This document shows, piece by piece, positions 3,247 to 30,499 of a stretch of DNA of 64,000 nt; within the stretch, counting starts at the first letter, position 1, and each line of letters opens with the position of its first letter. Below the pieces are notes generated by a model that was not told the origin of the DNA, did not search any database, and saw nothing but the letters and a program-made list of their open reading frames with translations. The DNA comes from an uncultured Bacilli bacterium (GTDB lineage Bacteria; Bacillota_I; Bacilli_A; RFN20; CAG-826): positions 4,863 to 68,862 of the forward strand of contig CANQQL010000002.1 of the NCBI GenBank assembly GCA_947625975.1, written 5' to 3'. Both the position numbers and the translations under genes were made by a program.

Positions 3247-3252
3247 TATTAT

Positions 3253-12528: not shown

Positions 12529-13770
12529 ATGCAAAAATTACTCGCTTCCTTCAATAAATTTACGGAAAAGCTTTTTGATGGATTTATAAAATTCTTTCGT
12601 AAGCATATTTTATTAATCGTACTTATAGTTTTATCTGTTTTTGCTTTAGTTATGAGAATCCTTTTCTTTGACTATGTAAGTGGCGATATGGGAAGTTTTT
12701 TAATTCCCTGGATGAATTATTTTAAAAATAATGGTCATTTCTTGGCACTCAGAGATATGACGCAATGTCCAAATGCCAATTACCTCTATGGCTACTATAA
12801 CTTGCTAGCCTTAGTTAGTTATTTTAATGGCCGTCCTATAGATTTAATAAAATCAATAAGTGTGTTTTTTGACTTTGCCCTAGCTATTGGCGTTGCTCTT
12901 GTGACTTATCACTATAGTAAAAGTAAAACAACTTTTACGGTATCATACCTTATTGTTTTATTTGCTCCTACTGTATTTGCTAATTCTGCTATTTGGGGGC
13001 AATGTGACCAAATATATGTATGCTTAATTGTTTATGCTTTCTTATTGATATTAAAAAAGCATAACGTTATTGCCACTTTAATTTTAGGAATATCACTCGG
13101 TTTTAAGTTACAAACAATTTTTATATTACCACTTCTTGGCTTCATGTGGCTCAATAAAAAGTATCGCATTTTTAATCTATTTTTATTACCAATCGGCTTT
13201 ATGATTACGGCATTACCCAGTTATTTGGTGGGAGGTAGTTTTGTTGCTCCATTTGTCGCAATTGGCTTACAATTAGGGCAATATTCAGATTTAAATTATG
13301 GTTCTGGCTCAATGTACGCTTTTATGGAAATGTACTATATCAAAGAATGTTTTAATAAAGGTACTGCTATTATTTTAGCTTTAGCGATAATGTTATTTGT
13401 TATGTTTGTTTTGTTCTACAAAAAAGTTGAATGTAACGAAAAAAATATTTTATATGTTGCTACGCTATACGCTTTATTAGCTCCTTTTGTTTTACCGCAT
13501 ATGCACGAACGATATTTCTTTATGGCAGATATATTCATCTTGCTATACGTCATTGTACATAAAAAACAATATTATCTCGCACCTTTAATGATTTTTTCAT
13601 CTATAAACACTTACACTCATTTCTTAACATTTGGTGAGTATATTTTTAAATTTTTAGGACAAGATAGTGTACGCTTATCCGCTTTAATAAATTTGTTTAT
13701 TCTTATAATTATGTTGCTAAATATGAAAAAATTATTTAGTTCAGTTAAAAATCAGCCTACAAAAATATAA
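12529..13770 (+). CDS. Polytopic membrane glycosyltransferase, GT-C-like (Gpi18/DUF2029-like mannosyltransferase type)
   Basis: About 10 hydrophobic helices. Acidic first-loop motif FFDYVSGDMGSFLIPW. GGGAG RBS before the ATG at 12529. The family call is from memory only. Confidence 0.45.
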   Translation: MQKLLASFNKFTEKLFDGFIKFFRKHILLIVLIVLSVFALVMRILFFDYVSGDMGSFLIPWMNYFKNNGHFLALRDMTQCPNANYLYGYYNLLALVSYFNGRPIDLIKSISVFFDFALAIGVALVTYHYSKSKTTFTVSYLIVLFAPTVFANSAIWGQCDQIYVCLIVYAFLLILKKHNVIATLILGISLGFKLQTIFILPLLGFMWLNKKYRIFNLFLLPIGFMITALPSYLVGGSFVAPFVAIGLQLGQYSDLNYGSGSMYAFMEMYYIKECFNKGTAIILALAIMLFVMFVLFYKKVECNEKNILYVATLYALLAPFVLPHMHERYFFMADIFILLYVIVHKKQYYLAPLMIFSSINTYTHFLTFGEYIFKFLGQDSVRLSALINLFILIIMLLNMKKLFSSVKNQPTKI

Positions 13771-13998
13771 AAATACTGAAAAAAATTTTAAAAAGAAAAT
13801 CAATAAAATGAAAATATATTTGGTAAAGAAGCTTATAAAGATTGATAAAAGCCAACCAGCCTGACAAAATTTAGTTATAATAGTTATGCCAATTTTAACT
13901 TTCAAATATCAATTATGAGCTTTATATCTTGTTTTTAACTGCAAAATTCATAACCAACGCATTGTAAATTTTTAACATGAATTGGCAATTTCTTTATA

Positions 13999-15798: not shown

Positions 15799-16398
15799 TT
15801 AAAATGTTTTTTCTATATAATTTGCTTCTTTTTTCTCTGCTAATTTTTGTAGTACTTCTTTAACTTCAAAAGGGGCGCTTTTGCTCACAATTACTCTTTT
15901 TATTACTGGGGCAAAAAAGGCATTATTAATTAAATTTTTATCTTCTAAAATAATGACTGCTTCATTTTCTTCTCCAATCATAAATAATTTTAAAAGTTCT
16001 TTAATATCGGAAGAATCTCTTTTTATTTCTAAATCTTTTTTACTTAAGCATGGATAAAAATTCGCTACAAGTGCTTGATAGCCTTTCTGGTCGATTTTAT
16101 TAAAATCATACTCAATATAAAAATGTGGATGAGTATTACCATTCATGTTCGTTTTAAACTTTACATAGCGATAAGAATTTACTCTTTCATCATTTAATGA
16201 ATTAAATAATAAGACATCATCAAACAAAGCCTCTAAGCCAAAGAAATGATTTTTTCCTTCTTTATCTTTACTAATTGATAAATCGCCGGGTAAATATAAT
16301 GGCTTCAAAATCCAATCTTTCTTTTCCAATATTGCTTTATAGACCTCTTGGTCATCACTTGAAAAAAGGCGATAAAAATTATTTAAATATCGATGCAT
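15799..16398 (-). CDS. Hypothetical cytoplasmic protein (199 aa), no recognisable motif
   Basis: Clean ORF with a coding-like composition and no TM segment. Convergent with the nuclease gene. Confidence 0.5.
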   Translation of the reverse strand: MHRYLNNFYRLFSSDDQEVYKAILEKKDWILKPLYLPGDLSISKDKEGKNHFFGLEALFDDVLLFNSLNDERVNSYRYVKFKTNMNGNTHPHFYIEYDFNKIDQKGYQALVANFYPCLSKKDLEIKRDSSDIKELLKLFMIGEENEAVIILEDKNLINNAFFAPVIKRVIVSKSAPFEVKEVLQKLAEKKEANYIEKTF

Positions 16399-16525: not shown

Positions 16526-17278
16526 ATGAAATCACTTTTAACATTTAATAATGTTTCAAAGTCGTTTTTCACTGAAACCGGCAAAACCGATGTTTTATCA
16601 AAAATAAGTTTTACACTTCATGATGATGAAATTATTGCAGTAATTGGACCATCTGGATGTGGAAAATCCACAATATTAAATCTTGCTTCTGCGCTGGAGA
16701 ACCAAACAAGTGGTGAAATAAAAAAAGATGGAAAAATCGGTTATATGTTTCAAAGAGATAACCTCTTTATGTGGCGTAATGTTTTAGATAATATTAAATT
16801 AGGTTTAGAAATCTCTAAAACATTAAACAAAGAAAATTTAGATTATATTCATAGTCTAATAAATAAATATGGTTTACAAGATTTTGCCAAGTATTATCCA
16901 AATGAGCTATCTGGAGGCATGCGACAACGTGTTGCACTTATTAGAACACTGGCCCTTAAACCAGATGTTCTCCTTCTTGATGAACCTTTTTCAGCCTTAG
17001 ATTATCAAACTCGTCTATTCGTTCTTGATGATGTTTATAAAATTATCAAGAGTGAGGGTAAATCCGCGATTATCGTAACACATGATATTTCTGAAGCAAT
17101 TAGTGTAGCAGATCGTGTAATAGTTCTTTCTAACCGACCTTGTAAAATTAAAAAAATTTTGGATATTAAATTTGACTTAGAAAATAAACGAACACCAACA
17201 GCTACAAGAAATGCAAAAGAATTTCAGCAATACTTTGATCTAATTTATAAGGAGTTAAATGCTTATGAAACAGATTGA
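16526..17278 (+). CDS. ABC transporter ATP-binding protein (NitT/TauT nitrate/sulfonate/HMP type)
   Basis: Walker A GPSGCGKST, signature LSGGMRQRV, Walker B LLLDEPFSALD. AAGGAGGA RBS before the ATG at 16526. Confidence 0.92.
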   Translation: MKSLLTFNNVSKSFFTETGKTDVLSKISFTLHDDEIIAVIGPSGCGKSTILNLASALENQTSGEIKKDGKIGYMFQRDNLFMWRNVLDNIKLGLEISKTLNKENLDYIHSLINKYGLQDFAKYYPNELSGGMRQRVALIRTLALKPDVLLLDEPFSALDYQTRLFVLDDVYKIIKSEGKSAIIVTHDISEAISVADRVIVLSNRPCKIKKILDIKFDLENKRTPTATRNAKEFQQYFDLIYKELNAYETD

Positions 17279-18083
17279 ATCAATTGAGCAATTCAAAAAA
17301 ATTAAAAAAAGAAGAAAAGTTTTAATTTTACTTTCACAAATTGGTTTAACCATACTATTTTTAGTCGCCTGGGAACTCTTGGCCAATTTAAATATCATAA
17401 ATGTATTCTTAGTATCTAAACCCTCTGATATTTTCAAACTTTTTATCAAATATATCCAAAGTGGCGAGTTGTTTGGGCACATAAAAATAAGTGTATATGA
17501 AACATTACTCGGCTTAATTATCGGTACATTTCTCGGTTTGATTATCGGTGTCTTATTATGGTGGAATGAAACAATTGCTAAAATACTTGATCCGTTTTTA
17601 GTCGTATTAAATGCTCTACCAAAAACCGCTCTCGCTCCTATCTTAATTATATGGGCAGGGACAGGAATTAAAGGTATAGTGCTTGTTGCAGTTTCCTTGT
17701 CAATAGTTGTCACTATTATGTCTTCCTACAATTATTTTGTTTCGGTAGACAAAGAACAAATTAAAATGCTAAAAACAATGGGCGCAAGCAAATTTCAAAT
17801 ACTTACCAAGCTTATATTGCCATCTAACATACCAAACATAATTAATATTATAAAAATAAATATTGGTATGAGTTGGGTTGGTGTAATCGTGGGCGAATTC
17901 CTTGTTTCTCGCGAAGGCATTGGTTATTTAGTAGTATATGGTGGCCAAGTATTTAAATTAGATCTCGTAATGATGGGCGTATTTATATTAGGAATTTTAG
18001 CTTTAATAATGTATTTAGTCCTAAACGCAATTGAAAAATATTATCGTTATACTAAATACTCCAAAAAAAGCCATAAATCTTAA
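17259..18083 (+). CDS. ABC transporter permease (BPD-type, NitT/TauT family)
   Basis: Six hydrophobic helices; overlaps the ATPase gene by 20 nt. Confidence 0.85.
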   Translation: MLMKQIESIEQFKKIKKRRKVLILLSQIGLTILFLVAWELLANLNIINVFLVSKPSDIFKLFIKYIQSGELFGHIKISVYETLLGLIIGTFLGLIIGVLLWWNETIAKILDPFLVVLNALPKTALAPILIIWAGTGIKGIVLVAVSLSIVVTIMSSYNYFVSVDKEQIKMLKTMGASKFQILTKLILPSNIPNIINIIKINIGMSWVGVIVGEFLVSREGIGYLVVYGGQVFKLDLVMMGVFILGILALIMYLVLNAIEKYYRYTKYSKKSHKS

Positions 18084-18093
18084 AAGCTATACA

Positions 18094-18125
18094 AAAAGTG
18101 AATTTTTTTAGCAAAATTCACTTTT
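18094..18125. terminator. Bidirectional terminator at the left border of the polysaccharide locus
   Basis: Perfect 13-bp stem AAAAGTGAATTTT-tttagc-AAAATTCACTTTT, flanked by an A-run and a T-run, between convergent genes. Confidence 0.8.
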
Positions 18126-18152
18126 TTTCAAATTTCATTAAAGCAAAAAATA

Positions 18153-18830
18153 TTATTTAGCAAAAAATTTCTTAAAAAAATTGTTTTTCGAAGCAGGCGC
18201 AACAAATAATGTCCCCATAAATGGCAAGTCACGGGACAACAACAATTCAATAGCTCTTTTTATATCCGCTATTTTTGTTTCGTTCTTTTTACCTACCAAA
18301 ACTACACATTCCAAATTATCTTTTAACAAGAAAATGTCTTGATATTTCAATATTGGAGGAAGCAATAAAATTATTCGATCATATCTATCTTTAGACTCAT
18401 TAATAAATTGATAAAATTGCCTTGATTGTAAAACTTTTGTTGGATAATTTGTATATCCCGCAATAACTAAATCCAAGCAGTCGTTTATTTTTATTAACAA
18501 ATCATTATTATTTAATTCCTCTGCTGCCATCTGTGACAATGTTTTTACATTAGTTACTCCATAAAATTTATCAAGCTTTGAATCATGCATACAAGCATCA
18601 ATTAAAAGAACTTTTTCACCATCTCTTGCGAATGTATCGGCAATCATTTTACTCATATATGCTGCATTGACGTGTATAACAGGTGCCATTATTCCGATAA
18701 TTTTTGCATACTTGCCTTGCACTGCTGTTAATTTATTACGAAATTCTAAAATGCTTGCTTGAAGTTTTTGATCAAGCTCTGCATTTTCTATAACAAATTG
18801 TAAATCATCTTGTTTATTTTTCATTTTCAT
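18153..18830 (-). CDS. CpsD/CapB-like BY-kinase homolog with degenerate Walker motifs (probable pseudokinase)
   Basis: Alignable by eye to CpsD: KIIGIMAPVIHVNAAYMSKMIADTFARDGEKVLLIDACMHDS. It lacks GK[ST], lacks the Walker B Asp (RIILLLPP), and has no Tyr in the C-terminal tail. Confidence 0.65.
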   Translation of the reverse strand: MKMKNKQDDLQFVIENAELDQKLQASILEFRNKLTAVQGKYAKIIGIMAPVIHVNAAYMSKMIADTFARDGEKVLLIDACMHDSKLDKFYGVTNVKTLSQMAAEELNNNDLLIKINDCLDLVIAGYTNYPTKVLQSRQFYQFINESKDRYDRIILLLPPILKYQDIFLLKDNLECVVLVGKKNETKIADIKRAIELLLSRDLPFMGTLFVAPASKNNFFKKFFAK

Positions 18831-19479
18831 TTCCTCCGGATGAATAAGTTATAGGAAACACATTTGAGCCAATTTCGATAATATCATTCGGTTCAAAGAT
18901 AGAATTATCTTTAATTTCTACCCAAATAGCTATAACACATCCTAGTAACAATCCAAATGCCGAAAATAAACTTATAGCCAAAGCATTTGATTTTGCAATG
19001 TTAACGGGCTCACTGGCGGGAAGAAGTATTTGAAATTTCGAGATGTCTTTATCAAATCCATTAACTGAATCCACTACCACTGATTGAGAAACTTCCATAA
19101 ACTCATTTAATACTACTTTTGTAATACTGCTATCTCTATTCGTAAAACTAACCAATACACTTGAATTACTTATAGAAAAAGATAAACCGTCTAAAATTTC
19201 AGTACTGGTTATTCCCACATTATTGCTATGAGTTATATTTTTTTCATTTAAATTATTAACAACCTTGGTATAAATTTTGACATCACTTTTCAAAACACTA
19301 ACAACTTTTGTGTTCGTTGGAAGACTATCAGTAAAAGACTCAAACTGTGCATCTGAACGGTAAATTGGTCTATTAAAGGCTAAGGCATATATAATTCCCA
19401 TTGCTAAAAAGCACACAAGAAAATAAATTATGGTAGCAAATCGTCTTTTAAATGCCCGTAATAACTGCCGAAATGTCAT
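18814..19479 (-). CDS. Wzz/CpsC-like polysaccharide chain-length determinant
   Basis: N-terminal TM helix plus a C-terminal TM helix flanking a roughly 150-aa loop. Overlaps the kinase-like gene by 17 nt. Confidence 0.7.
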   Translation of the reverse strand: MTFRQLLRAFKRRFATIIYFLVCFLAMGIIYALAFNRPIYRSDAQFESFTDSLPTNTKVVSVLKSDVKIYTKVVNNLNEKNITHSNNVGITSTEILDGLSFSISNSSVLVSFTNRDSSITKVVLNEFMEVSQSVVVDSVNGFDKDISKFQILLPASEPVNIAKSNALAISLFSAFGLLLGCVIAIWVEIKDNSIFEPNDIIEIGSNVFPITYSSGGNENEK

Positions 19480-19574
19480 TTCAAAATACTCCTTTCAATT
19501 TTGAATTATTATAACATATCCATTATCAAAAAAATATGCCATATATTTTTTTGCTGTATAGCTTCTTTTTAGCT

Positions 19575-20708
19575 TTACCCAAAATGAAGCGAATAAAGCT
19601 TAAATAATTTTATATTATTTTTTGTTAAAGCCAATTCCAAATCATAATATTTTTTATTTTTTGTTTTAAAGTCATTGAAAAAATTTTTTTTAATTATGCA
19701 TAGTATTGAAAATGATTGTTCCAAAAGTTCTTTTTTTAAAAGAAATAATCGATTATATGAAATAACACAATGCAATAAAAAGTATTCATAAAAGTCTTGA
19801 TCTAATTTTATATTAAACTTTTTACGATCGTCTAATAATTGTAAAAAAATCAAAATAGTATCTATAGATTTTTCATCATAAAGTGCTTTATTGGATAAAC
19901 TCTTTTTATTTATGCGATAATAATAAACACAATTTGGAACAAATTCTATTAACTTTGCAAGTCGATAAACAATCATTTGCATAACCGAATCTTCAAACCA
20001 ATATCCATCTGGAAATTTAATATTTTTAAATAATTCAGACTTAAAAACCTTCCCCCAAGCAAATCCGGGAATTAAATAACGCTCTTGGGACGAATGCTTT
20101 CTATAGTTTGTATTTTCTAATATTTTATTTTTTTCATCTACCTTACAAAAGTTGCCATAAACTACATCAGCATCAGTGGCAAAAGCTTTATGTAACAAAA
20201 TATCAATGGCATTTAATGGCAAAAAATCATCAGAATCCACAAACATTAAGTATTTCGCATTTGATTTTTGAAGACCAATATTTCTTGCTCGCGAAATTCC
20301 TTTGTTTTCTGTTAAAGTTATAATTGTTGCCTTTGAGCTATACTTATTATAAATATTCTGAGATTTATCTGTCGATCCGTTATCTATGACAATTAGTCTA
20401 AATTTATAGGATGATTCTTGTTGAAAAATACTTTTTAAACATTCGTCCAAATACTTTTCCCCGTTATAAATTGGCATGATAATATCTAGATCATAAACTT
20501 TTTTATTTTCATTTTTATTGTCTAGGGCAAAACTCGTTCCTTTATTTTCTCTACTTAATTTCTTATATTCCAATAAATTTACACTTGTAGGAGATTTTTT
20601 ATTACAATTTTTTATAAATAATTTTTTAAAACTATAATAAAAATATCCGATATGCAGCTTATTCAAAATATTTATAATATGACGTCTTAATTTCATAAAT
20701 CTTCTCAT
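19575..20708 (-). CDS. Glycosyltransferase family 2
   Basis: IIMPIYNGEKYLDECLKSI...LIVIDNGSTD...FVDSDD (DxD). Confidence 0.88.
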   Translation of the reverse strand: MRRFMKLRRHIINILNKLHIGYFYYSFKKLFIKNCNKKSPTSVNLLEYKKLSRENKGTSFALDNKNENKKVYDLDIIMPIYNGEKYLDECLKSIFQQESSYKFRLIVIDNGSTDKSQNIYNKYSSKATIITLTENKGISRARNIGLQKSNAKYLMFVDSDDFLPLNAIDILLHKAFATDADVVYGNFCKVDEKNKILENTNYRKHSSQERYLIPGFAWGKVFKSELFKNIKFPDGYWFEDSVMQMIVYRLAKLIEFVPNCVYYYRINKKSLSNKALYDEKSIDTILIFLQLLDDRKKFNIKLDQDFYEYFLLHCVISYNRLFLLKKELLEQSFSILCIIKKNFFNDFKTKNKKYYDLELALTKNNIKLFKLYSLHFG

Positions 20709-20711
20709 AGT

Positions 20712-22214
20712 TTATTTTTCCTTTGATAAGTTTGCTTCTTTTTTATTAAATTTAGTGTGTAAAAATTTTTTTATTTGGGACAAAATCTGCATTAATAACT
20801 CATCCTTTAATAAAAGTAAAGCTATAAAATAAATTAATACTCCTAAAACGACTTCAATTATAAAGCATAAATAATTTTTTAATTCAAGTACATTACGTAA
20901 AACAAAGCCAAAACCAAAAACAGAAATAAGCATTATAAGGGCAGATATGATTGATTTGTATGATAATTTAAATATTGAAGATACTTTTAAATATTTATGT
21001 TTCCAACAATAAACTATAAAATAGACTAGAATGATTAATTCTGCCAATATGGATGAAATTGCCGCACCATATGATCCAAGCCAAGGAATAAGTAGTAGTG
21101 TAGCTATACAATTAAATATTGCTGCACAAACTTGTCCGATATTTGATTTTGCTTGTAACCCAAATGGTGTAAAGATAATTGATTCGATACAAGATCTTAA
21201 AGAAATAATAAGTATTATAGGAGCTAAAATAATTAACAGATATTTTACTTTATCATAATCCATACCAAAGAAAAAAGGTACAAAATCAAATGAAACACAG
21301 ATAATTCCAAATGAGATTGGCAAAGCAATTAGCAATATAAACCTTATCGATAAATCGATATTTTGATTTATGGCCTTCACATCTTTCTTCGCAAATAAAT
21401 AAGCCATTCTAGATCTAATGACTAATGTATAGGCATTTAAAAACATCATACACATATTTATTATTTTATTTGCCTGTTCATAGAATCCTGTTTCTTCTTC
21501 TGAAGAAAATGCACCTAATATTACTTTATCGATTAATGCATAAAATTGATAGGCAATTGTCGGTACAAAATATACCATTACTTCTTTTAAATGTTTCTTT
21601 AAATTTAATTCTTTAAGATTAACTTTTGCAACAATCTTTTTCAATTTAAGCCAAAGCGATAAATTACCAAGTAATTGCGTAGAAGATAAAATTAAAATAT
21701 AAAGCCATAAATCTTCTTTCTTACTAATAAATAAAAAAATCAATACCACACCCAAAATTTTAAAAATACCATTTTTTAGAGCAATGTTTTTAAATTTTTC
21801 TAGTCCTTGATATAACCATTCTATATCTAAAATAGCAGAAATAAAGTATGGAATTTGCAGTAATAAAAATAATCTATATTCAGTGTATATTGATGCAATT
21901 ACTAGAAACAAAATAAGTGATATACCTAGAAATATTACTCTTAAGAAAAATATTTCGTAAAAAACTTTCGAATATTTATCCTTATTATCAGAATCCATAG
22001 CAATTATACGTTGTGCATGAGTTGCTGTACCAAGTCCTCCAGTTAGCATAAACATGGTAACGATTGAAAAGGTATAGCTGTATATTCCTATACCATCTGG
22101 CATTAAAATACGCGAAAGAATAGGAGTTGTAATAATAGGTATTATAGCTTCAATAAGTGTAACTATTAAATTAAAAATATAATTTTTACCTAAGTCACTT
22201 GTTTTCTTTATCAT
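20712..22214 (-). CDS. wzx: Wzx-type oligosaccharide flippase (MOP superfamily)
   Basis: 500 aa with about 14 TM helices. N-terminal ILSRILMPDGIGIYS is typical of polysaccharide biosynthesis flippases. Confidence 0.8.
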   Translation of the reverse strand: MIKKTSDLGKNYIFNLIVTLIEAIIPIITTPILSRILMPDGIGIYSYTFSIVTMFMLTGGLGTATHAQRIIAMDSDNKDKYSKVFYEIFFLRVIFLGISLILFLVIASIYTEYRLFLLLQIPYFISAILDIEWLYQGLEKFKNIALKNGIFKILGVVLIFLFISKKEDLWLYILILSSTQLLGNLSLWLKLKKIVAKVNLKELNLKKHLKEVMVYFVPTIAYQFYALIDKVILGAFSSEEETGFYEQANKIINMCMMFLNAYTLVIRSRMAYLFAKKDVKAINQNIDLSIRFILLIALPISFGIICVSFDFVPFFFGMDYDKVKYLLIILAPIILIISLRSCIESIIFTPFGLQAKSNIGQVCAAIFNCIATLLLIPWLGSYGAAISSILAELIILVYFIVYCWKHKYLKVSSIFKLSYKSIISALIMLISVFGFGFVLRNVLELKNYLCFIIEVVLGVLIYFIALLLLKDELLMQILSQIKKFLHTKFNKKEANLSKEK

Positions 22215-23587
22215 ATTGCAACATTAGCTCCTATGTAACTACTCATACTTTTCTCACCTTGTATATTATTTTCTGGGTAGGCATTCTCTTTCATAATTAA
22301 AAAACATAATAATATTATAAATTGCGTTATGTCTTCTCGAAAAATAGCGATTGTTTGTGAAAAGCACAGAAATACTAAGAGAGGAATCAAACGATTGTAG
22401 TCTTTATTTAATTTGAAATTAAAATTCGGACTAAAAATGTCCAAATAAATGCTCAATAATAAAATAAAACCAATTAATCCATATCCGCATATTATTTCTA
22501 ATATAATATTATGTGTTATCATCGCTTCGCCAGTGATAGAAATAACATTTATATTGTAAAAATTAATATAAGAGAATAATCCCGTACCAAAAAAACATTG
22601 TAATGGATGATTTAATAAACCATTTATATAAGACGCGTAAATTTCAAAACGTCCTGTGGTAATTTCATTAATATTTGATAAATCCCCGAATCTATTTAAC
22701 GTAGTTATTAAGAGTGTTTTTGTTTGAGGTACCACCAAAATCGTAATAATTACCAAAATTAATAATGAAAATAGTATTTTCATTCTTTTTATGTATTGAA
22801 TATTAAAAGCTAGCAATAATATTGCCCAAATTATGAGTAACAAAAAGTACGTTTTAGATGTCATTAATGCTCCAGCATATAATGAAATAATCGCACATAC
22901 AGTGAGAAATGGTATCAAATATTTTTTATACTTAATAAACAATTTTTCTTCTTGAATTTTTTTATCCAAGAAAACATACGTTGAACAAGTCGCAGTTAAT
23001 AAACAATATAATGAAAAAGTATTTTTATCTAATGTCGATAAAGCCCCACTCAAAGATTGAATAGCCGCATTCTCTATTGTCAAAGAATTTAATATCACAG
23101 CCACTTCCATGATTATACTACCTAAACATAAAAATAAAATTGCCGGCAATTTCCTTATTTTTATAGTATTGTCATACATTAGGTCAATAGCTAAAAATAT
23201 CGATAAAACCCATTTAATTAAATATGAAATACTAGTAGAATTTCCAACAATCAAATAAGCAAAAATTTCGTATACCAATAAGAATACAGCCACACTTATA
23301 GCTTTAATATTTAACTTGTTTTTCTTAAGGATTAATTGCATTAAAATTGATAAGGTAATAACATTGTAAAAGGCAAAACCAAATATAAAAATATATAAAT
23401 AAAATTGCATAAAAAAGAATAAACAATATATTTTGTGCTCCAAAGGCATATATATAATGACTATAAACATTAAGATAGATATTACACTCAATACACTATC
23501 TGGTAATAACTTAAAATATTTTAGAGATATATATAGTAGTGTAAAAATTAGAAGAATTATCCACTTTAAAACATTTGACTTTTTCAT
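22211..23587 (-). CDS. wzy: Wzy-type polysaccharide polymerase / O-antigen ligase-like membrane protein
   Basis: 458 aa, polytopic, with one larger loop. 4-nt overlaps with both neighbours. The position in the locus fits. Confidence 0.65.
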   Translation of the reverse strand: MKKSNVLKWIILLIFTLLYISLKYFKLLPDSVLSVISILMFIVIIYMPLEHKIYCLFFFMQFYLYIFIFGFAFYNVITLSILMQLILKKNKLNIKAISVAVFLLVYEIFAYLIVGNSTSISYLIKWVLSIFLAIDLMYDNTIKIRKLPAILFLCLGSIIMEVAVILNSLTIENAAIQSLSGALSTLDKNTFSLYCLLTATCSTYVFLDKKIQEEKLFIKYKKYLIPFLTVCAIISLYAGALMTSKTYFLLLIIWAILLLAFNIQYIKRMKILFSLLILVIITILVVPQTKTLLITTLNRFGDLSNINEITTGRFEIYASYINGLLNHPLQCFFGTGLFSYINFYNINVISITGEAMITHNIILEIICGYGLIGFILLLSIYLDIFSPNFNFKLNKDYNRLIPLLVFLCFSQTIAIFREDITQFIILLCFLIMKENAYPENNIQGEKSMSSYIGANVAI

Positions 23588-24681
23588 GATAAATTCCTCT
23601 TATTTGAATATTTTAAATATAATGCTTCATATTGTTTCGTAATTGTATCTATATCATATTTACGTGAATTTTTAACTGATTTTGTACTAAACAAGTTTCT
23701 TTTTTCATTATCTCTATAAAGAGTTATCATAGCGTTTAATAGCTCCTCTTGAGAGTTTGAATTTACTAAAATGCCATTTTCACGAACAATATCTGCAACT
23801 CCTCCAACATTAGTGGATATAATCGGTAACCCACAAGCCATTGCTTCTAGTATTGTCATTGGCAATCCTTCATATATTGAAGACAAAACAAAAACATCTG
23901 CCTTTGCATAAAAATCTTCAATATTAATAACATTTCCTATAAATTCAATGTGACTTTCAATGTTGTTTTTACAAGCATAATTTACCAATTCATCTCTTAA
24001 ATCACCATCACCTGCAAAAATTAACTTAACAGAATTATGCAATTTTAAAAAATCATTAAATGCTTTTAACAATAAAATTTGATTTTTTTGTTCTTCCATT
24101 CTTCCTACCGTTATAAATGTAAATGTTTCATGATCCTTTTTATTATTAAAATTAAATCTTTTTAAATCAACAAAATTATAAATTGTTTCAGCAGTTTTTA
24201 TTTTATAAAAATCTTTTAATTGCTTAGTAATAATATCGGAAATTCCCACCGGTATAGCTTTTTTCAGTTTAAATAGTATTTTTAAAATAAGTTTGCCACT
24301 TTTTTTTGATTCATAAATTGGCATATTATGCACTGTATGCAAAACCTTTACTTTATGAAATAAAACATATGGAAATAAATATGCATAGATATGCAAATGA
24401 GTATGAATAACATTTGGCCTTATTTTTTTTAAAATTTGTGACATTTTAAAAATTGCTCTTAAATTGATGCCCTTATTTTCGTCAAGTGAAATAATATTAA
24501 TATTTTCAATTTTTTCTAGTAAAGCCTTAGCTTCATTTTGAAAAAGTGTACGCTTAGCGATAAGATAAACATCAAATTTGCTTTTATCAATATGCTTTAC
24601 AAGTTGAGTGACCATTGTTTCGGCACCGCCAAAACATAGACCTGGAATTACTATAGCTACTTTTAACTTTTTCAAAATCAT
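23584..24681 (-). CDS. Glycosyltransferase family 4 (GT-B)
   Basis: FVLSSIYEGLPMTILEAMACGLPIISTNVGG (EX7E region). The ATG at 24681 is preferred over the TTG at 24690. Confidence 0.88.
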   Translation of the reverse strand: MILKKLKVAIVIPGLCFGGAETMVTQLVKHIDKSKFDVYLIAKRTLFQNEAKALLEKIENINIISLDENKGINLRAIFKMSQILKKIRPNVIHTHLHIYAYLFPYVLFHKVKVLHTVHNMPIYESKKSGKLILKILFKLKKAIPVGISDIITKQLKDFYKIKTAETIYNFVDLKRFNFNNKKDHETFTFITVGRMEEQKNQILLLKAFNDFLKLHNSVKLIFAGDGDLRDELVNYACKNNIESHIEFIGNVINIEDFYAKADVFVLSSIYEGLPMTILEAMACGLPIISTNVGGVADIVRENGILVNSNSQEELLNAMITLYRDNEKRNLFSTKSVKNSRKYDIDTITKQYEALYLKYSNKRNLS

Positions 24682-24820
24682 CAACCCCAAGTTTTTTATA
24701 ATTATAACATATATAAAGTAACAATTTAAGAAAAATAGTCTCTTTTATTAAGCAATTAATTTCATGTTGGATTGAAAATGCTAACTAACTAAAGCTCATT
24801 AAATATTCTTTTTTGTAATT

Positions 24821-25546
24821 TTAACGTGCTTCATTAAACTTAAATAACACTACTACTGTCAAAAGTATTAATTTAATATCAAACCAAATACTCCTTAACT
24901 TAAAATATTCTAACTCCAAAGTTTGTCGCTTTCGGGAATTATAAGAGACCATACTTCGACCATGAGTTTGCCAATAACCCGTTAATCCCGGACGGGCACA
25001 TAAAAGTATTGCTCTTTCGTTTTCAGAATAATTTTCATATAATTCTTGCTCACATATCGGTCTCGGTCCCACAAACGACATTGATCCAAATAAGATATTG
25101 AATAATTGCGGTAATTCATCAATAGACGTTTTTCGTAAAATTCGTCCAAGTTTTGTAATTCTTGGATCATTTTCTAATTTTCTTTCGATGCACCAAGTCT
25201 CATAATCTTCCTTACTTAAATATTCTTTAATACGCTTTTCAGCATCTATGTACATAGTTCTAAATTTATAAACAATAATAGGCTTTCCATTCTTTCCTAT
25301 ACGCTTATCCTTAAATAAAATTGGGCCACGCGATGTCAGTTTTACTATGATAGCTACAATTAAAAATAATGGAGAAAGAATGATAATGGCAATGAGTGAA
25401 GCAAATATATCAAAAATTCGTTTAAAAAACTCATAAATTTTTCCACCTTTAACAACAAATTTTTCAATTTCCACTTTATTAATTTCACTTGTTGTTTTTA
25501 TTTTTGTCGCAATTCCTCCATCTTGCTCTTGACATTTTTCTACCAT
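24821..25546 (-). CDS. Polyprenyl-phosphate sugar phosphotransferase (initiating 'bacterial sugar transferase', CpsE/WbaP C-terminal type)
   Basis: FKRIFDIFASLIAIIILSPLFLIVAIIVKLTSRGPILFKDKRIGKNGKPIIVYKFRTM...DELPQLFNIL...GPRP. Confidence 0.9.
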   Translation of the reverse strand: MVEKCQEQDGGIATKIKTTSEINKVEIEKFVVKGGKIYEFFKRIFDIFASLIAIIILSPLFLIVAIIVKLTSRGPILFKDKRIGKNGKPIIVYKFRTMYIDAEKRIKEYLSKEDYETWCIERKLENDPRITKLGRILRKTSIDELPQLFNILFGSMSFVGPRPICEQELYENYSENERAILLCARPGLTGYWQTHGRSMVSYNSRKRQTLELEYFKLRSIWFDIKLILLTVVVLFKFNEAR

Positions 25547-25590
25547 AAGTAACCTACTTTCTAATCATTTTCAACAAATAATTATCCATA

Positions 25591-25613
25591 TATGAATATA
25601 TTATATATTCATA
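25591..25613. promoter_or_regulatory. 11-1-11 perfect palindrome in the divergent control region of the polysaccharide locus
   Basis: TATGAATATAT-T-ATATATTCATA. Verified base by base; only the central base is asymmetric. Confidence 0.35.
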
Positions 25614-25757
25614 ATTAATACAAGCAATTGAATTTGTTTTTTCACTTTTTGTCAAATAAAGGCTATTTTTAAAATGACAAAAATCAAGAAATCATAACAA
25701 ATTTTCAATTACCTATTTATATCAATGCTTTTACGTATTGATATAAAAAATTGCACA

Positions 25758-25766
25758 TGATAAAAT
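25758..25766 (+). promoter_or_regulatory. Extended -10 element (TGATAAAAT) upstream of the plus-strand GT gene
   Basis: TGnTAAAAT, 52 nt upstream of the ATG at 25818. Confidence 0.3.
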
Positions 25767-25817
25767 TTGTTCGAAATAAGCGAGTATTTTTTTTCAACCA
25801 AATAGCGAGGTTACAAA

Positions 25818-26987
25818 ATGAAAATTTTATATTTTTTAGATAGTATCAACAATGCTGGCGGTATACAGGAACAAATAGTTAGATGGCTTCAAATTCTAAA
25901 TAAAAAAAATCAAATAGATATTTTAGGTTATTATTCCACAAATTCAAAAGGAGAAAAATTAAATACTGAGCAAAATTATATTAAAAGGCTTAATAAATTA
26001 GGTAGCCAAGTCTATTTAATTGATCCTTTCAAAAAAGGTTATTTTATAAAATGTATAAAACAAACTAAAAATTTTTTTAAAGAACATTGTGATTACGATA
26101 TTATTGAAGTTCACGGTTCTAGTAAATGCTATCACATTTTAAAATACGCCAAAAAATATGGGATAAAAGTAAGAATTGCTCATTCGCATTGCACACAGTT
26201 TCAAACTAAAAACAAGTTTAAAATTTTTATTGGAAATATTTTAAAAAGGAGTTACGCACGTTTAGCAACAACATATTTTGCTTGTTCTACTGAGGCCGGA
26301 AAATGGTTATTTTCTAATAAAATTATAAATTCTTCTAATTTTTATATAATAAACAATGCACTTGATTTAAATAAATTCTTTTTTTCCGAGACACTACGCT
26401 TAGAGACAAGAAATAATTTAAACATAAATAGTTCAAAAGTTATTTTGCATATTGGAAGATTTATGTATCAAAAAAATCATAGTTTCTTAATTGATATATT
26501 TAATGAACTTCATAAAATCGATAATAATTACTATCTTATATTATTAGGTGATAGCGTTGATGGAGACACTACTTTCAAAGAGCATATAATCCAAAAGGTT
26601 ACAAACTACAACCTTAGTAATTCTGTTTTATTTGCCGGCGTTCAAGAAGAAGTTAATAAATTTTTGAATGCTGCTGATTTATTTCTCTTACCATCCCATT
26701 ATGAAGGCCTACCAATTGTTTGTTTGGAAGCACAGGCCACTGGCTTACCATGTCTTTTATCCGATGTAATATCTTCCGAAACTAAAATCACCTCCTTAGT
26801 TTCTTTTTATTCTTTAAAGAACTCTGCTAAAGAATGGGCGCAAAAAATAGATGCGATTATTAAAAATTCGCCAAAACGATGTAATCATTCTGAAGAATTT
26901 GTATCCGCTAATTATGAAATTGTTTCAAGTACGCTAAATTTACAAAATTTATATAAAAAATTAATTAAAGAAAATAATCTTCATTAA
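25818..26987 (+). CDS. Glycosyltransferase family 4 (GT-B)
   Basis: LLPSHYEGLPIVCLEAQATGLPCLLSD (EX7E region). AGCGAGG RBS. Confidence 0.88.
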   Translation: MKILYFLDSINNAGGIQEQIVRWLQILNKKNQIDILGYYSTNSKGEKLNTEQNYIKRLNKLGSQVYLIDPFKKGYFIKCIKQTKNFFKEHCDYDIIEVHGSSKCYHILKYAKKYGIKVRIAHSHCTQFQTKNKFKIFIGNILKRSYARLATTYFACSTEAGKWLFSNKIINSSNFYIINNALDLNKFFFSETLRLETRNNLNINSSKVILHIGRFMYQKNHSFLIDIFNELHKIDNNYYLILLGDSVDGDTTFKEHIIQKVTNYNLSNSVLFAGVQEEVNKFLNAADLFLLPSHYEGLPIVCLEAQATGLPCLLSDVISSETKITSLVSFYSLKNSAKEWAQKIDAIIKNSPKRCNHSEEFVSANYEIVSSTLNLQNLYKKLIKENNLH

Positions 26988-27108
26988 AATAAATAAGTAG
27001 TCATAAGGTTTCAATAGCATAATAAATTCTTACTTATAAAACTTATAAAAAAGTATTAAATTTAATCACAATTTCTTGCTTACTAAATACACTACTATAG
27101 GTGATTTT

Positions 27109-28110
27109 ATGAAAAAGATTAAATACTTTTTATTATCAGCATTTCTAGTTTTACCATTGTCATTGTTAAACTCTTGTAATGACGATGGTCTTACTCATAT
27201 TACGATTGCTGAAGTAACGCATTCCTTGTTCTATGCCCCTCAATACATTGCTATAAACAAGGGATATTTTGAAGATGAAGGATTAAAAGTAGATGTAATT
27301 ACTACTCCTGGTGCCGATAAAACGATGGCGGCTTTACTTTCTAAAGAAGCTCAAATTGGCTTAATGGGACCAGAAGCAAGTGTTTATGTATACCAAAATG
27401 GACAAAAAGATTACGCTATTAATTTTGCTCAATTAACACAAAAAGATGGATCATTTATCTTAGGACGTGATCCTATTGAAAACTTTGATTACACCATGAT
27501 GCGTGGCAAAACGGTAATCGGTGGTCGTAAAGGTGGTATGCCTTTAATGATTCTAGAATATATTTTAAAACGCGCTGGATTAGATATTGGAGAAGATGAT
27601 CCAACTAAAGAAGTAAATGTCAGAACCGATGTTTCCTTTGATGCAATGTCAGGAGTATTTGTCGCCGGAGAATCTGATTTTGTTACAGCATTCGAACCAA
27701 CGGCATCACAAGTAGTTCGGTCTGGAAAAGGACATATTCTTACTTCTCTTGGCGAAGATTCCGGAGTTATTCCATATACATGTTATTCAACTTTGAAATC
27801 TTATATGGATAATAATGAAGAAATATTAAAAAAATTTACTCGTGCATTACAAAAAGGAATTGATTATGTTTTAAATAACACTATAGAAGACATTATTCCG
27901 CTTTTAAGAAAAGATTTTACCTCCAGTGATGATGAAGAATTAACCACTGTTATGAATAACTATCTTGGCATTGAGGCCTGGCCTACTAGTCTTCGTTTTA
28001 ATAAAGACAATTTTGATAAACTAATTGAAATTGTAAAAATGGCTGGTCAATTAAATGAAGAGGCCGTGGTTCCTTATGATAAATTAGTTACTAATGCTTA
28101 TATTAGTTAA
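27109..28110 (+). CDS. ABC transporter substrate-binding lipoprotein (NMT1/THI5-like, NitT/TauT family)
   Basis: Lipobox LLNSC. HSLFYAPQYIA...GYFEDEGL is typical of the NMT1 fold. AGGTGA RBS before the ATG at 27109. Confidence 0.85.
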   Translation: MKKIKYFLLSAFLVLPLSLLNSCNDDGLTHITIAEVTHSLFYAPQYIAINKGYFEDEGLKVDVITTPGADKTMAALLSKEAQIGLMGPEASVYVYQNGQKDYAINFAQLTQKDGSFILGRDPIENFDYTMMRGKTVIGGRKGGMPLMILEYILKRAGLDIGEDDPTKEVNVRTDVSFDAMSGVFVAGESDFVTAFEPTASQVVRSGKGHILTSLGEDSGVIPYTCYSTLKSYMDNNEEILKKFTRALQKGIDYVLNNTIEDIIPLLRKDFTSSDDEELTTVMNNYLGIEAWPTSLRFNKDNFDKLIEIVKMAGQLNEEAVVPYDKLVTNAYIS

Positions 28111-28389: not shown

Positions 28390-29229
28390 CTAATTTACGA
28401 CTTTGCGTGATTTCTTTTCTTTAATTACTTCTGTTCGAACTTCCTCTTTAGAATTTACTTTTATATACTCATATCTTTTATCAAGATAGGAATGATTTTC
28501 TTCAACTCGTTTTATTAATTGCTGATAAACACGATCCCGTAACTCTATTTGTGCTTCTTTTGTATCTAAACTCGTATTAGGATAGAATGGTCCATCAATA
28601 TAAAGAATTAGTTTTGATTTACCATTTTTCTTCTTTTTATAAACTGTGGTTTTTACAAATACTGGTGCATTAAATTTAACCGGATAATAAAATGATGTTT
28701 CTTTAAACTGCCTTATTTTATTGTATTTAGGCCATATATGTGCTTCGGGATAAATAGAAATAACGCTACCACGATTATAAAAATCCTTAATTGCTTTAAG
28801 AAAATTGATATACGCTCTTTTTGAAGTAGGTGTCGGTAAGCACCCTAATAACCTCACGATTGTCTTAATTCCTTTAATACTGATAGAGTCGGGATTTGAA
28901 ATAATATAAGTACTACGTGGCCAAGCCAATACCGGAACAGAAAAAACATCACAGAGTGGTGAGGTGTGGTTAGAATAAACAAAATATCCTTCCTTCCTTT
29001 TGGCCATTGTCTTTAAAACTTTTCGATTTCTGATTCGTCCTCGGATAATACAATATAGCAGCAAAGCCACAATAGGATAAAACAAGTGATATATTACTTT
29101 CTTCCAAAATCTCCACCACTTACTTTTAGGATTATAGCAAAAATCATCAGGTGTCAATTTTGTTTTGATCCCAATATTTGCAAAATCATCATTTTCTTCA
29201 TCAAAGTAATAATACTTAATTTTTTTCAT
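28390..29229 (-). CDS. Membrane-anchored lysophospholipid/glycerolipid acyltransferase (PlsC/LPLAT family)
   Basis: NHTSPLCD (HX4D), YPEAHIW block, one N-terminal TM helix. Confidence 0.7.
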   Translation of the reverse strand: MKKIKYYYFDEENDDFANIGIKTKLTPDDFCYNPKSKWWRFWKKVIYHLFYPIVALLLYCIIRGRIRNRKVLKTMAKRKEGYFVYSNHTSPLCDVFSVPVLAWPRSTYIISNPDSISIKGIKTIVRLLGCLPTPTSKRAYINFLKAIKDFYNRGSVISIYPEAHIWPKYNKIRQFKETSFYYPVKFNAPVFVKTTVYKKKKNGKSKLILYIDGPFYPNTSLDTKEAQIELRDRVYQQLIKRVEENHSYLDKRYEYIKVNSKEEVRTEVIKEKKSRKVVN

Positions 29230-30379
29230 GCTTCTCTTCGTTATGCTTTTTTATTATATCAAAAAACATTTGCTCCATTTGTTCCATACAATGTTCTTGA
29301 TTAAAAGACTTACTATTTTCAAGATATTTTTGACGCAATTTCATCTTTTCTTCTGGATGTTCAATAAAATAATCGATTTTTTGGGCCAAATCCTTACTAT
29401 CGTTTACTTTAAAAAGTGATCTTTCATCCAGAGCAAAAGCTTTAGTCGCACATCTTGGAGAATTGGCAATAATAGGTACTAATCCACAGCAAATTGCCTC
29501 TAAACAAGATATCGCCTCAATTTCTATTTCTGCCGGATGGCAATATAAATCACAATAATTAATGATTTTTAATAATTCTTCCCGTTTAAAAAATTGAAAT
29601 ATTGGCATATTTGTTAGATGTTTTGCTGTATATTTTGCTAATTTTTTCTTTAATGGTCCGTCTCCAGCACAAATAAGTTGAATTTTATCTTTGTATTTTG
29701 ATTTTTCAATAGCTTTAAATAAAACCATATGTGATTTTTCTTTGGAGTATCTCCCTGTAAATAAAATACAAAATTTATCTTTAAACTGATCGGGCTTTTC
29801 ACTTGGAGTGACTTTATAAAGATCATTAACACCGTTTGAAATTACATAGCCATTTGTTTTTATTTTCATTTCTCGCTCAAAATAATCACGAATAAATTGT
29901 GTTGGATAATGTATACCATCAACATACTTGTATAAATTATTGTAATAGAATTTATAGGTTAAATGATTAGCCAAAGGAACATTTTTCATTCCAATGTGCG
30001 CAGTCAAATTTTCCGCTTGGGCATGAAAACCTGCCGAAATGGGTATATCTAGTTCCTTAAGAAGCTTTGCTGTCTTTTTGGCAATGAAAATAGGTATCAT
30101 AATATGAACAATATCCGCATCTTTGACAGCTTCATAAATGGTTGTACGGTCAAATTTTGCTACTACGATGTTATTCATATCTAATATTTTATTAGCTAAA
30201 AATCCAAATTTTGCTACAGGAATTACATAATAGTTTTCTTTATCTTTCTTATCAACATCAGGGCAAACTACTTTAACATCATATTTCTTTTTAATGAGAT
30301 GATTAATCAAGTTCATGGCTGCTATGGTTGTGCCGTTATTAGCTTTACCCAAAACTTCACAAATCACTGTAATCTTCAT
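29216..30379 (-). CDS. Glycosyltransferase family 4 (possible glycolipid synthase)
   Basis: GT-B fold. CHPAEIEIEAISCLEAICCGLVPIIANS is an EX7E-like region. The ATG at 30379 has an AGGTGA RBS. Overlaps the acyltransferase gene by 14 nt. Confidence 0.8.
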   Translation of the reverse strand: MKITVICEVLGKANNGTTIAAMNLINHLIKKKYDVKVVCPDVDKKDKENYYVIPVAKFGFLANKILDMNNIVVAKFDRTTIYEAVKDADIVHIMIPIFIAKKTAKLLKELDIPISAGFHAQAENLTAHIGMKNVPLANHLTYKFYYNNLYKYVDGIHYPTQFIRDYFEREMKIKTNGYVISNGVNDLYKVTPSEKPDQFKDKFCILFTGRYSKEKSHMVLFKAIEKSKYKDKIQLICAGDGPLKKKLAKYTAKHLTNMPIFQFFKREELLKIINYCDLYCHPAEIEIEAISCLEAICCGLVPIIANSPRCATKAFALDERSLFKVNDSKDLAQKIDYFIEHPEEKMKLRQKYLENSKSFNQEHCMEQMEQMFFDIIKKHNEEKHEKN

Positions 30380-30499
30380 ATAACTCACCTATTACAATTA
30401 TAACTACAATAAACTTAAAGTAAAGAAAGTTTTTAATTTACGCTTGCACTTGTTAATTATGACTATACTACTCACTTTTTTCGATGCGTGTTACTTAAC

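What the first reader, a model, noticed from the sequence alone, without database searches (positions are those of the whole stretch)
16526..28110. A 9-kb AT-rich Wzy-dependent glycan island splits an ABC importer operon
The ATPase (16526-17278) and permease (17259-18083) of a NitT/TauT-type importer end at a 13-bp-stem bidirectional terminator (18094-18125). The only matching NMT1/THI5-like binding lipoprotein (27109-28110, same strand) lies 9 kb further on. Between them is a complete polysaccharide locus (18153-26987), mostly on the opposite strand. It is visibly more AT-rich: sampled 60-nt lines give about 20% GC inside wzy versus about 45% inside pnp. Genes of this transporter type are normally contiguous. 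The arrangement therefore looks like insertion of a horizontally acquired glycan cassette into the operon. That would leave the binding-protein gene dependent on read-through from the plus-strand GT gene (25818-26987) or on a new promoter.
Basis: partly seen in the sequence, partly recalled or inferred. Interest (0 to 1): 0.6.

Follow-up and report, generated by a model that had tools for sequence, protein, structure and literature searches.

The report
Glycan locus lodged inside ABC importer operon
A nine-kilobase sugar-coat gene cluster sits between the membrane part and the binding-protein gene of a nutrient importer in an uncultured gut bacterium, at a spot where related species carry other, unrelated inserted genes; it is a tidy but ordinary example of a gene-turnover hotspot.

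Summary
An ABC ATPase (16526-17278) and permease (17259-18083) end at a 14-bp bidirectional hairpin. Eight Wzy-pathway glycan genes follow (18153-26987), then the NMT1-type binding lipoprotein (27109-28110). Independent sample assemblies reproduce both junctions, so this is not a misassembly.

Insertion into a once-contiguous operon is supported. The three transporter genes are adjacent in eight genomes of other genera and in one congener.

The GC contrast is 26.4% against 31.1%, not 20% against 45%. It comes from amino-acid composition; codon usage is typical. The locus is also not foreign. Its closest relatives are homologous loci with nearly the same gene order in four congeners, where they lie at a different site near copA/ZIP/DUF5662. 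That site has no glycan locus in this genome.

The permease-SBP spacer is a turnover hotspot. Five of six species carry cargo there, of four unrelated kinds: this glycan locus, a RhuM/PDC-S05 defence candidate flanked by 200-bp repeats, GalT, and a Y-polymerase with YolD and a hydrolase. The EPS locus may therefore have replaced earlier cargo.

The transporter genes remain under strong purifying selection. How the SBP gene is transcribed is untested. Interest is modest.

The parts
16526..17278 (+). ABC importer ATP-binding subunit (NitT/TauT-like)
   Evidence: Pfam ABC_tran 4.6e-29. Best NCBIfam hits are the SaoA, taurine and nitrate ATPases, all below the equivalog cut-offs. dN/dS is 0.086 against G002.
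17259..18083 (+). ABC importer permease, about 6 TM segments
   Evidence: Pfam BPD_transp_1 5.2e-25. Best NCBIfam hits are TauC, SaoP and SsuC, below cut-off. dN/dS is 0.027.
18093..18126 (.). Bidirectional terminator-like hairpin that ends the ATPase-permease transcript and the convergent glycan operon
   Evidence: 14-bp stem, -11.9 kcal/mol, z = -3.8 on the plus strand and -3.5 on the minus strand, with U-runs on both strands. The consensus scan missed it because the stem has only 2 G-C pairs.
18153..18830 (-). CpsD/EpsB-like BY-kinase homolog, degenerate
   Evidence: NCBIfam TIGR01007 7e-20, below cut-off. PDB hits BceF and Wzc. The Walker A GK[ST], the Walker B aspartate and the C-terminal tyrosine cluster are all absent. 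The three congener homologs read (G001, G003, G005) show the same loss of Walker A.
18814..19479 (-). Wzz/CpsC-like chain-length co-polymerase
   Evidence: Pfam Wzz 3.1e-6; 2 predicted TM segments.
19575..20708 (-). GT2 glycosyltransferase, the gene specific to this version of the locus
   Evidence: Pfam Glycos_transf_2 3.6e-31. It has no counterpart in the congeners' loci, which carry a GT4 at this position. Its GC of 24.5% is the lowest in the region.
20712..22214 (-). Wzx flippase
   Evidence: Pfam Polysacc_synt 1.2e-26. 53-57% identical to congeners.
22211..23587 (-). Wzy polymerase
   Evidence: Pfam Wzy_C 4.1e-12, 11 predicted TM segments. 40-44% identical to congeners.
23584..24690 (-). 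GT4 glycosyltransferase
   Evidence: Pfam Glycos_transf_1 1.4e-41.
24821..25546 (-). Initiating polyprenyl-phosphate hexose-1-phosphate transferase (small PGT)
   Evidence: Pfam Bac_transf 9.8e-61. NCBIfam EPS_sugtrans 2.5e-75, below cut-off.
25547..25817 (.). Divergent control region of the glycan locus, holding a candidate promoter (25738-25766, plus strand) for the GT4 gene and possibly for the SBP gene
   Evidence: TTGATA-17-TAAAAT, 10 of 12 matches, with TG before the -10 hexamer. Consensus match only.
25818..26987 (+). GT4 glycosyltransferase, inverted relative to the rest of the locus and co-directional with the SBP gene
   Evidence: Pfam Glycos_transf_1 2.6e-27. Its homologs in G003 and G004 are co-directional with the PGT gene.
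26988..27108 (+). GT4-SBP spacer with no terminator; only its last ~29 nt, which include the AGGTGA ribosome-binding site, are conserved with G002
   Evidence: Fold z = 0.38. 29 nt at 90% identity with G002 and 22 nt with G004.
27109..28110 (+). NMT1/THI5-like substrate-binding lipoprotein, cognate to the ATPase and permease
   Evidence: Pfam NMT1 2.6e-17. Lipobox LLNSC. Adjacent to the permease in nine other genomes. dN/dS is 0.066.

Best explanation
The segment from about 18127 to 27080 is a Wzy-dependent surface-polysaccharide locus of the type native to this genus of uncultured gut Erysipelotrichales-like Bacilli.

Location. It occupies the permease-SBP spacer of a NitT/TauT-family ABC importer whose ancestral form is a contiguous ATPase-permease-SBP operon. 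In this genus that spacer is a gene-turnover hotspot between conserved flanks. Five of six species carry cargo there, of four unrelated kinds. In four congeners the glycan locus normally lies elsewhere, next to copA/ZIP/DUF5662. In this genome that usual site carries no glycan locus, and a KAP-NTPase/RdrB-like pair adjoins it.

Origin (inferred). The locus reached its present place by recombination between conserved flanks. It either moved within the genome or, more likely, came from a related lineage carrying a divergent 'serotype-like' allele. It may have replaced earlier cargo. No site-specific mobile element appears to have been involved.

Function (inferred). The importer still works as a split system. 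The ATPase-permease transcript stops at the bidirectional hairpin. The SBP gene is transcribed by read-through from the GT4 promoter, from a promoter of its own in 26988-27108, or from both.
For: Shown:
- The three transporter genes are adjacent in G016, G022, G040, G031, G038, G026, G032 and G037, and in congener G006 (74-nt spacer).
- The same spacer holds a RhuM/PDC-S05 gene in G001 and G003, flanked by ~200-bp direct repeats of the permease 3' end. It holds GalT in G004, and an alpha/beta-hydrolase, a Y-family polymerase and a YolD-like gene in G002.
- On the transporter tree, G000 and G002 are sisters with different cargo. Empty G006 is sister to the RhuM carriers.
- Homologous glycan loci with nearly the same gene order lie near copA/ZIP/DUF5662 in G001, G003, G004 and G005. 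In G000 the ZIP and DUF5662 genes are adjacent, with no glycan genes.
- The nearest Wzx relatives anywhere are the congeners.
- Glycan proteins are about equally diverged among all congeners (Wzx about 54%, Wzy about 42%), while core proteins are 63-93% identical.
- Codon usage is typical of the genome.
- Both junctions recur in independent assemblies.
- The transporter genes are intact, with dN/dS of 0.03-0.09.
- A hairpin follows the permease gene, and none precedes the SBP gene.
Against: - No mechanism is visible in G000: no repeats, integrase or cargo remnants.
- The spacers have diverged completely, so the insertion points cannot be mapped.
- The sample is small: six species in the genus, all MAGs. 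G005 is uninformative, because it has no permease and its SBP gene is cut by a contig end.
- The region's GC is in the lowest 2% of 9-kb windows and its tetranucleotide distance is at the 95th percentile. A somewhat foreign origin is therefore not excluded.
- The order of events cannot be resolved. The glycan locus may have split the operon, or it may have replaced earlier cargo.
- Nothing about transcription was measured.
Confidence: 0.78

Rival explanations
1. A foreign, AT-rich glycan cassette came from a distant donor and inserted into an intact operon, splitting it in one step.
For: - GC is 26.4% against 31.1%, at the 1.9th percentile of 9-kb windows. The tetranucleotide distance is at the 95th percentile.
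- Five of the eight genes are in the lowest 2-10% of genes for GC.
- The closest species, G002, has no Wzy at all.
- The best PGT hits (61-65%) are in other families of the order, above the congeners' 50-55%.
Against: - Codon usage is at the 81st percentile and GC3 barely differs. The deviation lies in amino-acid composition (95th percentile).
- Wzx, Wzy and GT4, and the gene order, match the congeners best. Nothing closer turned up in 185,579 species genomes.
- Sister species G002 already has the operon split by other cargo, so a single splitting event is not required.
Confidence: 0.12
2. The locus relocated within the genome. The lineage's own vertically inherited glycan locus moved from the copA/ZIP/DUF5662 site into the ABC spacer, with no lateral transfer.
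For: - The usual site has no glycan locus in G000.
- Gene order is nearly the same. The differences are an inverted GT4 and a GT2 in place of a GT4.
- G005, close to G000 by the ZIP protein (89%), has the most similar glycan proteins.
Against: - G000 and G005 glycan proteins are only 36-57% identical, while their ZIP proteins are 89% identical. This fits allele replacement better than recent common descent.
- A separate PGT, GT4 and ABC-exporter remnant on C19 matches the G005 flank better: 64% for the GT4 and 85% for the exporter.
Confidence: 0.2
3. The arrangement is an assembly artefact: the MAG contig wrongly joins the glycan locus to the ABC genes.
For: The genome is a 66-contig MAG at 89% completeness.
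Against: - The left junction (GT2-Wzz-kinase-permease-ATPase) appears in three separate sample assemblies.
- The right junction (PGT-GT4-SBP-acyltransferase) also appears in three.
- Both junctions lie inside a single 71-kb contig.
Confidence: 0.02

Closest known systems
Streptococcus pneumoniae cps locus between dexB and aliA (PMC5850285)
   Same: Both are Wzy-dependent Gram-positive capsule loci (CpsC/D-like, PGT, GTs, Wzy, Wzx) held between conserved flanking genes. One of those flanks encodes an ABC substrate-binding lipoprotein. Both show deep allelic ('serotype-like') divergence among relatives. Exchange is attributed to homologous recombination of the flanks rather than to a mobile element.
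   Different: Here the flanks are two genes of a single transporter operon, so the locus interrupts a functional unit. The site is not dedicated to capsule, since other species keep unrelated cargo there and the glycan locus elsewhere. There is no CpsA or CpsB, and the kinase is degenerate. Recombination was inferred here, not demonstrated.
Gene-turnover hotspots between core genes (Oliveira et al. 2017, PMC5635113) and defence-island hotspots (PMC10121019)
   Same: An interval bounded by conserved genes holds different accessory genes in different genomes. The cargo includes defence candidates (RhuM/PDC-S05). Most versions lack integrases.
   Different: The interval lies inside an operon rather than between independent core genes. 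The sample is six species of MAGs, not a population of strains, so turnover rates cannot be estimated.
Classical integrase-borne genomic islands (tRNA- or gene-3'-end-targeting)
   Same: In G001 and G003 the inserted gene is bounded by ~200-bp direct repeats that duplicate the 3' end of the target gene. Islands that restore the target's 3' end look the same.
   Different: No integrase, tRNA or repeats accompany the glycan locus in G000. The G001/G003 insert is only about 1.55 kb and holds one gene.
NitT/TauT-family ABC importers with NMT1/THI5-like binding proteins (SsuABC, TauABC, ThiXYZ, Sao type)
   Same: One ATPase, one BPD_transp_1 permease and one NMT1-type lipoprotein SBP. They are contiguous in nearly all the relatives examined.
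   Different: No NCBIfam equivalog cut-off is reached, so the substrate is unknown. No riboswitch precedes the operon. In this genus the operon is split.

Membership tests
Wzy-dependent CPS/EPS locus (Gram-positive type) | Initiating polyprenyl-phosphate phosphoglycosyl transferase | tested here: met
   Bac_transf 9.8e-61
Wzy-dependent CPS/EPS locus (Gram-positive type) | Wzx flippase and Wzy polymerase | tested here: met
   Polysacc_synt 1.2e-26; Wzy_C 4.1e-12 with 11 predicted TM segments
Wzy-dependent CPS/EPS locus (Gram-positive type) | CpsC-like adaptor plus an active CpsD BY-kinase (Walker A, A' and B motifs, C-terminal tyrosine cluster) | tested here: not met
   The adaptor is present (Wzz 3e-6). 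The kinase homolog lacks GK[ST], the Walker B aspartate and the tyrosine cluster. The homologs in G001, G003 and G005 also lack Walker A.
Wzy-dependent CPS/EPS locus (Gram-positive type) | CpsB phosphatase and CpsA/LCP ligase | tested here: not met
   No such domain occurs in any ORF of the locus. PF03816 is absent from the 89%-complete genome.
NitT/TauT-family ABC importer | ABC_tran ATPase, BPD_transp_1 permease and NMT1-type SBP that co-occur as one unit | tested here: met
   Pfam. Adjacent in nine other genomes.
NitT/TauT-family ABC importer | Assignment to a substrate-defined subfamily (Ssu, Tau, Nrt, ThiXYZ or Sao) | tested here: inconclusive
   All NCBIfam hits are far below the equivalog cut-offs. 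No TPP or other riboswitch was found.
Classical horizontally acquired genomic island | Integrase or transposase, flanking direct repeats, or a tRNA target | tested here: not met
   All ORFs are glycan genes. No junction repeats. The nearest tRNA is 24 kb away.
Classical horizontally acquired genomic island | Composition and codon usage that deviate from the genome | tested here: inconclusive
   GC at the 1.9th percentile and tetranucleotide distance at the 95th. Codon usage at the 81st percentile and GC3 difference at p = 0.04.
Gene-turnover hotspot between conserved genes | The same interval between orthologous flanks holds unrelated accessory genes in different genomes and is empty in some | tested here: met
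   Four cargo kinds plus one empty site among six congeners; contiguous in eight outgroups.

The most novel reading that the evidence does not exclude
The permease-SBP spacer may be more than a passive hotspot. It could be the target of an unrecognised integrase-less cassette mechanism that uses homology to the last ~200 bp of the permease gene. The 98.5-99% identical direct repeats around the RhuM/PDC-S05 gene in G001 and G003 would be its footprint. Such a mechanism would shuttle defence genes, metabolic genes and whole glycan loci in and out of an operon, with the operon's own transcription driving the cargo or the downstream SBP gene.
Probability: 0.08. Interest if true: 0.55.

Novelty: new member of a known kind. 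Interest (0 to 1): 0.3.

Why it matters
The case shows that an operon's internal spacer can serve as a recurrent landing site for accessory genes, including a whole surface-glycan locus, without inactivating the transporter. It also documents serotype-like diversity and positional mobility of capsule-type loci in an uncultured gut lineage. For annotation, the lesson is that low GC in a polysaccharide locus is weak evidence of foreign origin, and synteny was the test that decided the question. None of this changes current understanding of genomic islands.

Tried and rejected
- Flanking direct or inverted repeats in the window: only chance-level AT-rich matches.
- Remnants of the other species' cargo in G000's spacers: none.
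- Riboswitch or other RNA family near the operon: only three distant tRNAs.
- Single-protein scan of species genomes with Wzx: no relatives found. An alignment-based scan was needed.
- Exact-match look-ups of the permease and the kinase homolog: not on record. The Wzz-like protein and the SBP worked instead.
Transcript mapping and read-level junction checks were therefore not possible.
- The consensus terminator scan missed the hairpin because it requires at least 3 G-C pairs. Folding recovered it.
- G005 was examined as a further comparison but is uninformative at this site. It has no permease, and its SBP gene is cut at a contig end.
- Misassembly was considered and rejected.


Full report
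WHAT IS THERE

The window is G000:C2:4863-68862 of a 1.27-Mb, 66-contig, 31%-GC MAG. Record titles of its congeners describe uncultured gut Erysipelotrichales/Bacilli bacteria.

- An ABC ATPase (16526-17278) overlaps a BPD_transp_1 permease (17259-18083).
- Ten bases after the permease stop lies a 14-bp-stem hairpin (18093-18126). Its energy is -11.9 kcal/mol, z = -3.8, and U-runs follow it on both strands.
- Seven minus-strand genes converge on that hairpin: a CpsD-like kinase homolog, a Wzz/CpsC-like protein, GT2, Wzx, Wzy, GT4 and a small Bac_transf phosphoglycosyl transferase.
- A 271-bp divergent region follows, then a plus-strand GT4 (25818-26987).
- After a 121-nt unstructured spacer (fold z = 0.38) comes the NMT1/THI5-type lipoprotein (27109-28110, lipobox LLNSC, ribosome-binding site AGGTGA).

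IS THE ARRANGEMENT REAL?

Yes. Exact-match look-ups found the right junction (PGT-GT4-SBP-acyltransferase) in three separately assembled samples. They found the left junction (GT2-Wzz-kinase, convergent with permease-ATPase) in three as well. Misassembly is therefore very unlikely.

COMPOSITION

The measured values are:
- The region has 26.4% GC against 31.1% for the genome. The SD of 9-kb windows is 1.95 points. This is the 1.9th percentile, and four other non-overlapping windows in the genome are lower. The tetranucleotide distance is at the 95th percentile.
- Gene by gene, GT2, Wzx, Wzy and the two GT4 genes fall in the lowest 2-10% of genes. The kinase homolog, Wzz and the PGT are typical.
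- Among genes with at least 4 TM segments, Wzx is at the 11th percentile and Wzy at the 8th.
- GC3 differs only weakly (Mann-Whitney p = 0.04). Karlin-type codon bias of the eight genes is at the 81st percentile of contiguous 8-gene blocks. Amino-acid composition is at the 95th.

The AT-richness is real but modest. It reflects the kind of proteins encoded, not foreign codon usage, and on its own it is weak evidence for foreign origin.

SYNTENY

I searched 40 relatives with the SBP and fetched 20 kb around each hit.
- In eight genomes from other genera of the family and order, ATPase, permease and SBP are adjacent. These are G016, G022, G026, G031, G032, G037, G038 and G040. The ATPase is inverted in G037.
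- Congener G006 also has them adjacent, with a 74-nt spacer. Contiguity is therefore the ancestral state.
- The other congeners that could be scored all have something in the same spacer, and it is never the glycan locus:
  - G001 and G003 carry a 337-aa RhuM-family gene (Pfam 6e-103; PADLOC defence candidate PDC-S05, 1e-141). It is bounded by ~200-bp direct repeats, 98.5-99% identical, that duplicate the permease 3' end.
  - G004 carries a GalT gene.
  - G002 is the sister species, with 87-91% identical transporter proteins. It carries an alpha/beta-hydrolase, a Y-family polymerase and a YolD-like gene.
- On a tree of the concatenated transporter proteins, G000 and G002 are sisters (support 100) with different cargo. 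Empty G006 is sister to the RhuM carriers. At least four independent gains or replacements are needed.
- The sequence after the permease stop differs between the lineages from the first base, except that G001, G003 and G006 share their first ~15 nt. Only the last 22-29 nt before the SBP start codon are shared among G000, G002 and G004.

It does so in a way that strengthens the insertion reading and weakens the claim that the glycan locus itself did the splitting.

WHERE THE GLYCAN LOCUS COMES FROM

- Wzy homologs (40-44% identity) occur only in congeners G001, G003, G004 and G005.
- Their loci have nearly the same order: PGT, GT4, GT4, Wzy, Wzx, GT4, Wzz, kinase homolog. They lie beside a copA-type P-type ATPase, a ZIP transporter and a DUF5662 gene.
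- In G000 the orthologs of those flanking genes lie on contig C11. There ZIP and DUF5662 are adjacent, with no glycan genes. A KAP-type NTPase and an 873-aa RdrB-like deaminase follow (PADLOC 3e-20).
- A long-form PGT, a GT4 and an ABC exporter on C19 match the other flank of the G005 locus.
- An alignment-based scan of one genome per species (185,579 species) found no Wzx closer than the congeners (51-56%). The next hit is 41%.
- Pairwise identities are star-like. Wzx is about 54% and Wzy about 42% between any two congeners, except the sister pair G001/G003 (70% and 60%). Core copA and ZIP proteins are 63-93% identical.

G000's locus is therefore one more deep allele of a genus-typical locus, located at a different address.

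MECHANISM AND CONSEQUENCES

The following steps are inferred, not shown.
- G000 has no integrase, transposase, tRNA or repeats at this site. The most economical route is recombination through the conserved flanks, as is accepted for the pneumococcal cps locus between dexB and aliA (PMC5850285). It also fits hotspots between core genes in general (PMC5635113).
- Three questions stay open: whether the DNA came from elsewhere in the same genome or from a related lineage; whether it entered an intact operon; and whether it displaced earlier cargo.
- The importer has not decayed. All three genes are intact, with dN/dS of 0.03-0.09 between G000 and G002, and the operon is split in both.
- The hairpin should end the ATPase-permease transcript.
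- The SBP gene has no terminator upstream. It lies 121 nt behind a co-directional GT4 gene that has a good extended -10 promoter-like site (TTGATA-17-TAAAAT with TG, 25738-25766). Read-through is therefore plausible. An own promoter in the AT-rich spacer cannot be excluded, because promoter-like matches occur at chance frequency in this genome (81 found against 87 expected).
- The glycan pathway has initiation, three transferases, a flippase, a polymerase and a co-polymerase. Its kinase homolog is degenerate, and no CpsB or LCP ligase was found. The cell does make peptidoglycan, with three PBPs. How the polymer is regulated and anchored is unknown.

LIMITS

- All genomes are MAGs, and there are only six species in the genus.
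- G005 is uninformative at this site.

VERDICT

Insertion into a once-contiguous operon is well supported. 'Foreign AT-rich cassette' is not supported. The added value is that the spacer is a recurrent hotspot and that the glycan locus sits away from its usual site in the genus. This is a new member of a known kind and of modest interest.

Noticed in passing
L021 (G001:C75) 1474-1674 and 3222-3422; L023 (G003:C5) about 12000-12208 and 13742-13950: ~200-bp direct repeats (98.5-99% identical) duplicate the permease 3' end. They bracket a 1.55-kb insert with a single RhuM/PDC-S05 defence-candidate gene and no integrase. This looks like a single-crossover (Campbell-type) or att-like integration footprint.
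   Followed up: partly
G000:C11:27252-31745 (L058:10252-14745): A KAP-type P-loop NTPase (619 aa) is followed by an 873-aa RdrB-like adenosine-deaminase protein (PADLOC RdrB 3e-20). The pair resembles the RADAR defence system. It adjoins the site where congeners keep their glycan locus.
   Followed up: partly
window 18153-18830, and homologs in L051, L052 and L055: The CpsD-like BY-kinase homolog lacks the Walker A GK[ST], the Walker B aspartate and the C-terminal tyrosine cluster. The homologs in G001, G003 and G005 also lack Walker A. This points to a conserved pseudokinase paired with the Wzz/CpsC-like protein.
   Followed up: partly
window 28390-30388: The acyltransferase and GT4 pair downstream of the SBP gene is also variable. 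G005 has it (77-84% identity), with a further 732-aa gene inserted between it and the SBP gene. In G004 it is absent, and the P-type ATPase gene directly abuts the SBP gene.
   Followed up: partly
G000:C12:25625-26915: A second, paralogous NMT1-type SBP (327-aa ORF) lies next to its own BPD_transp_1 permease. The genome therefore has two NitT/TauT-like systems.
   Followed up: no
window 15799-16398: A 199-aa ORF with no Pfam or NCBIfam match lies divergent from the ABC ATPase gene. It keeps that position in six other genomes (34-78% identity), so it may be functionally linked to the importer.
   Followed up: no
G000:C19:20382-24974 (L059:15182-19774): A long-form Bac_transf PGT (495 aa), a GT4 and an ABC exporter form a second small glycan module. 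The GT4 and the exporter are orthologous to the flank of the G005 glycan locus.
   Followed up: partly
G000:C23:1-19950: These are the two lowest-GC 9-kb windows of the genome (22.6-23.7%), far more deviant than the region under study. Their content was not examined.
   Followed up: no
L089 3319-4487: In one low-coverage (3x) sample assembly the plus-strand GT4 gene is called as two ORFs (148 and 174 aa). This is either a frameshift variant in the population or a sequencing error.
   Followed up: no
G000 whole genome: No LytR-CpsA-Psr (PF03816) ligase was detected in the 89%-complete genome, although three PBP transpeptidase genes are present.
   Followed up: partly
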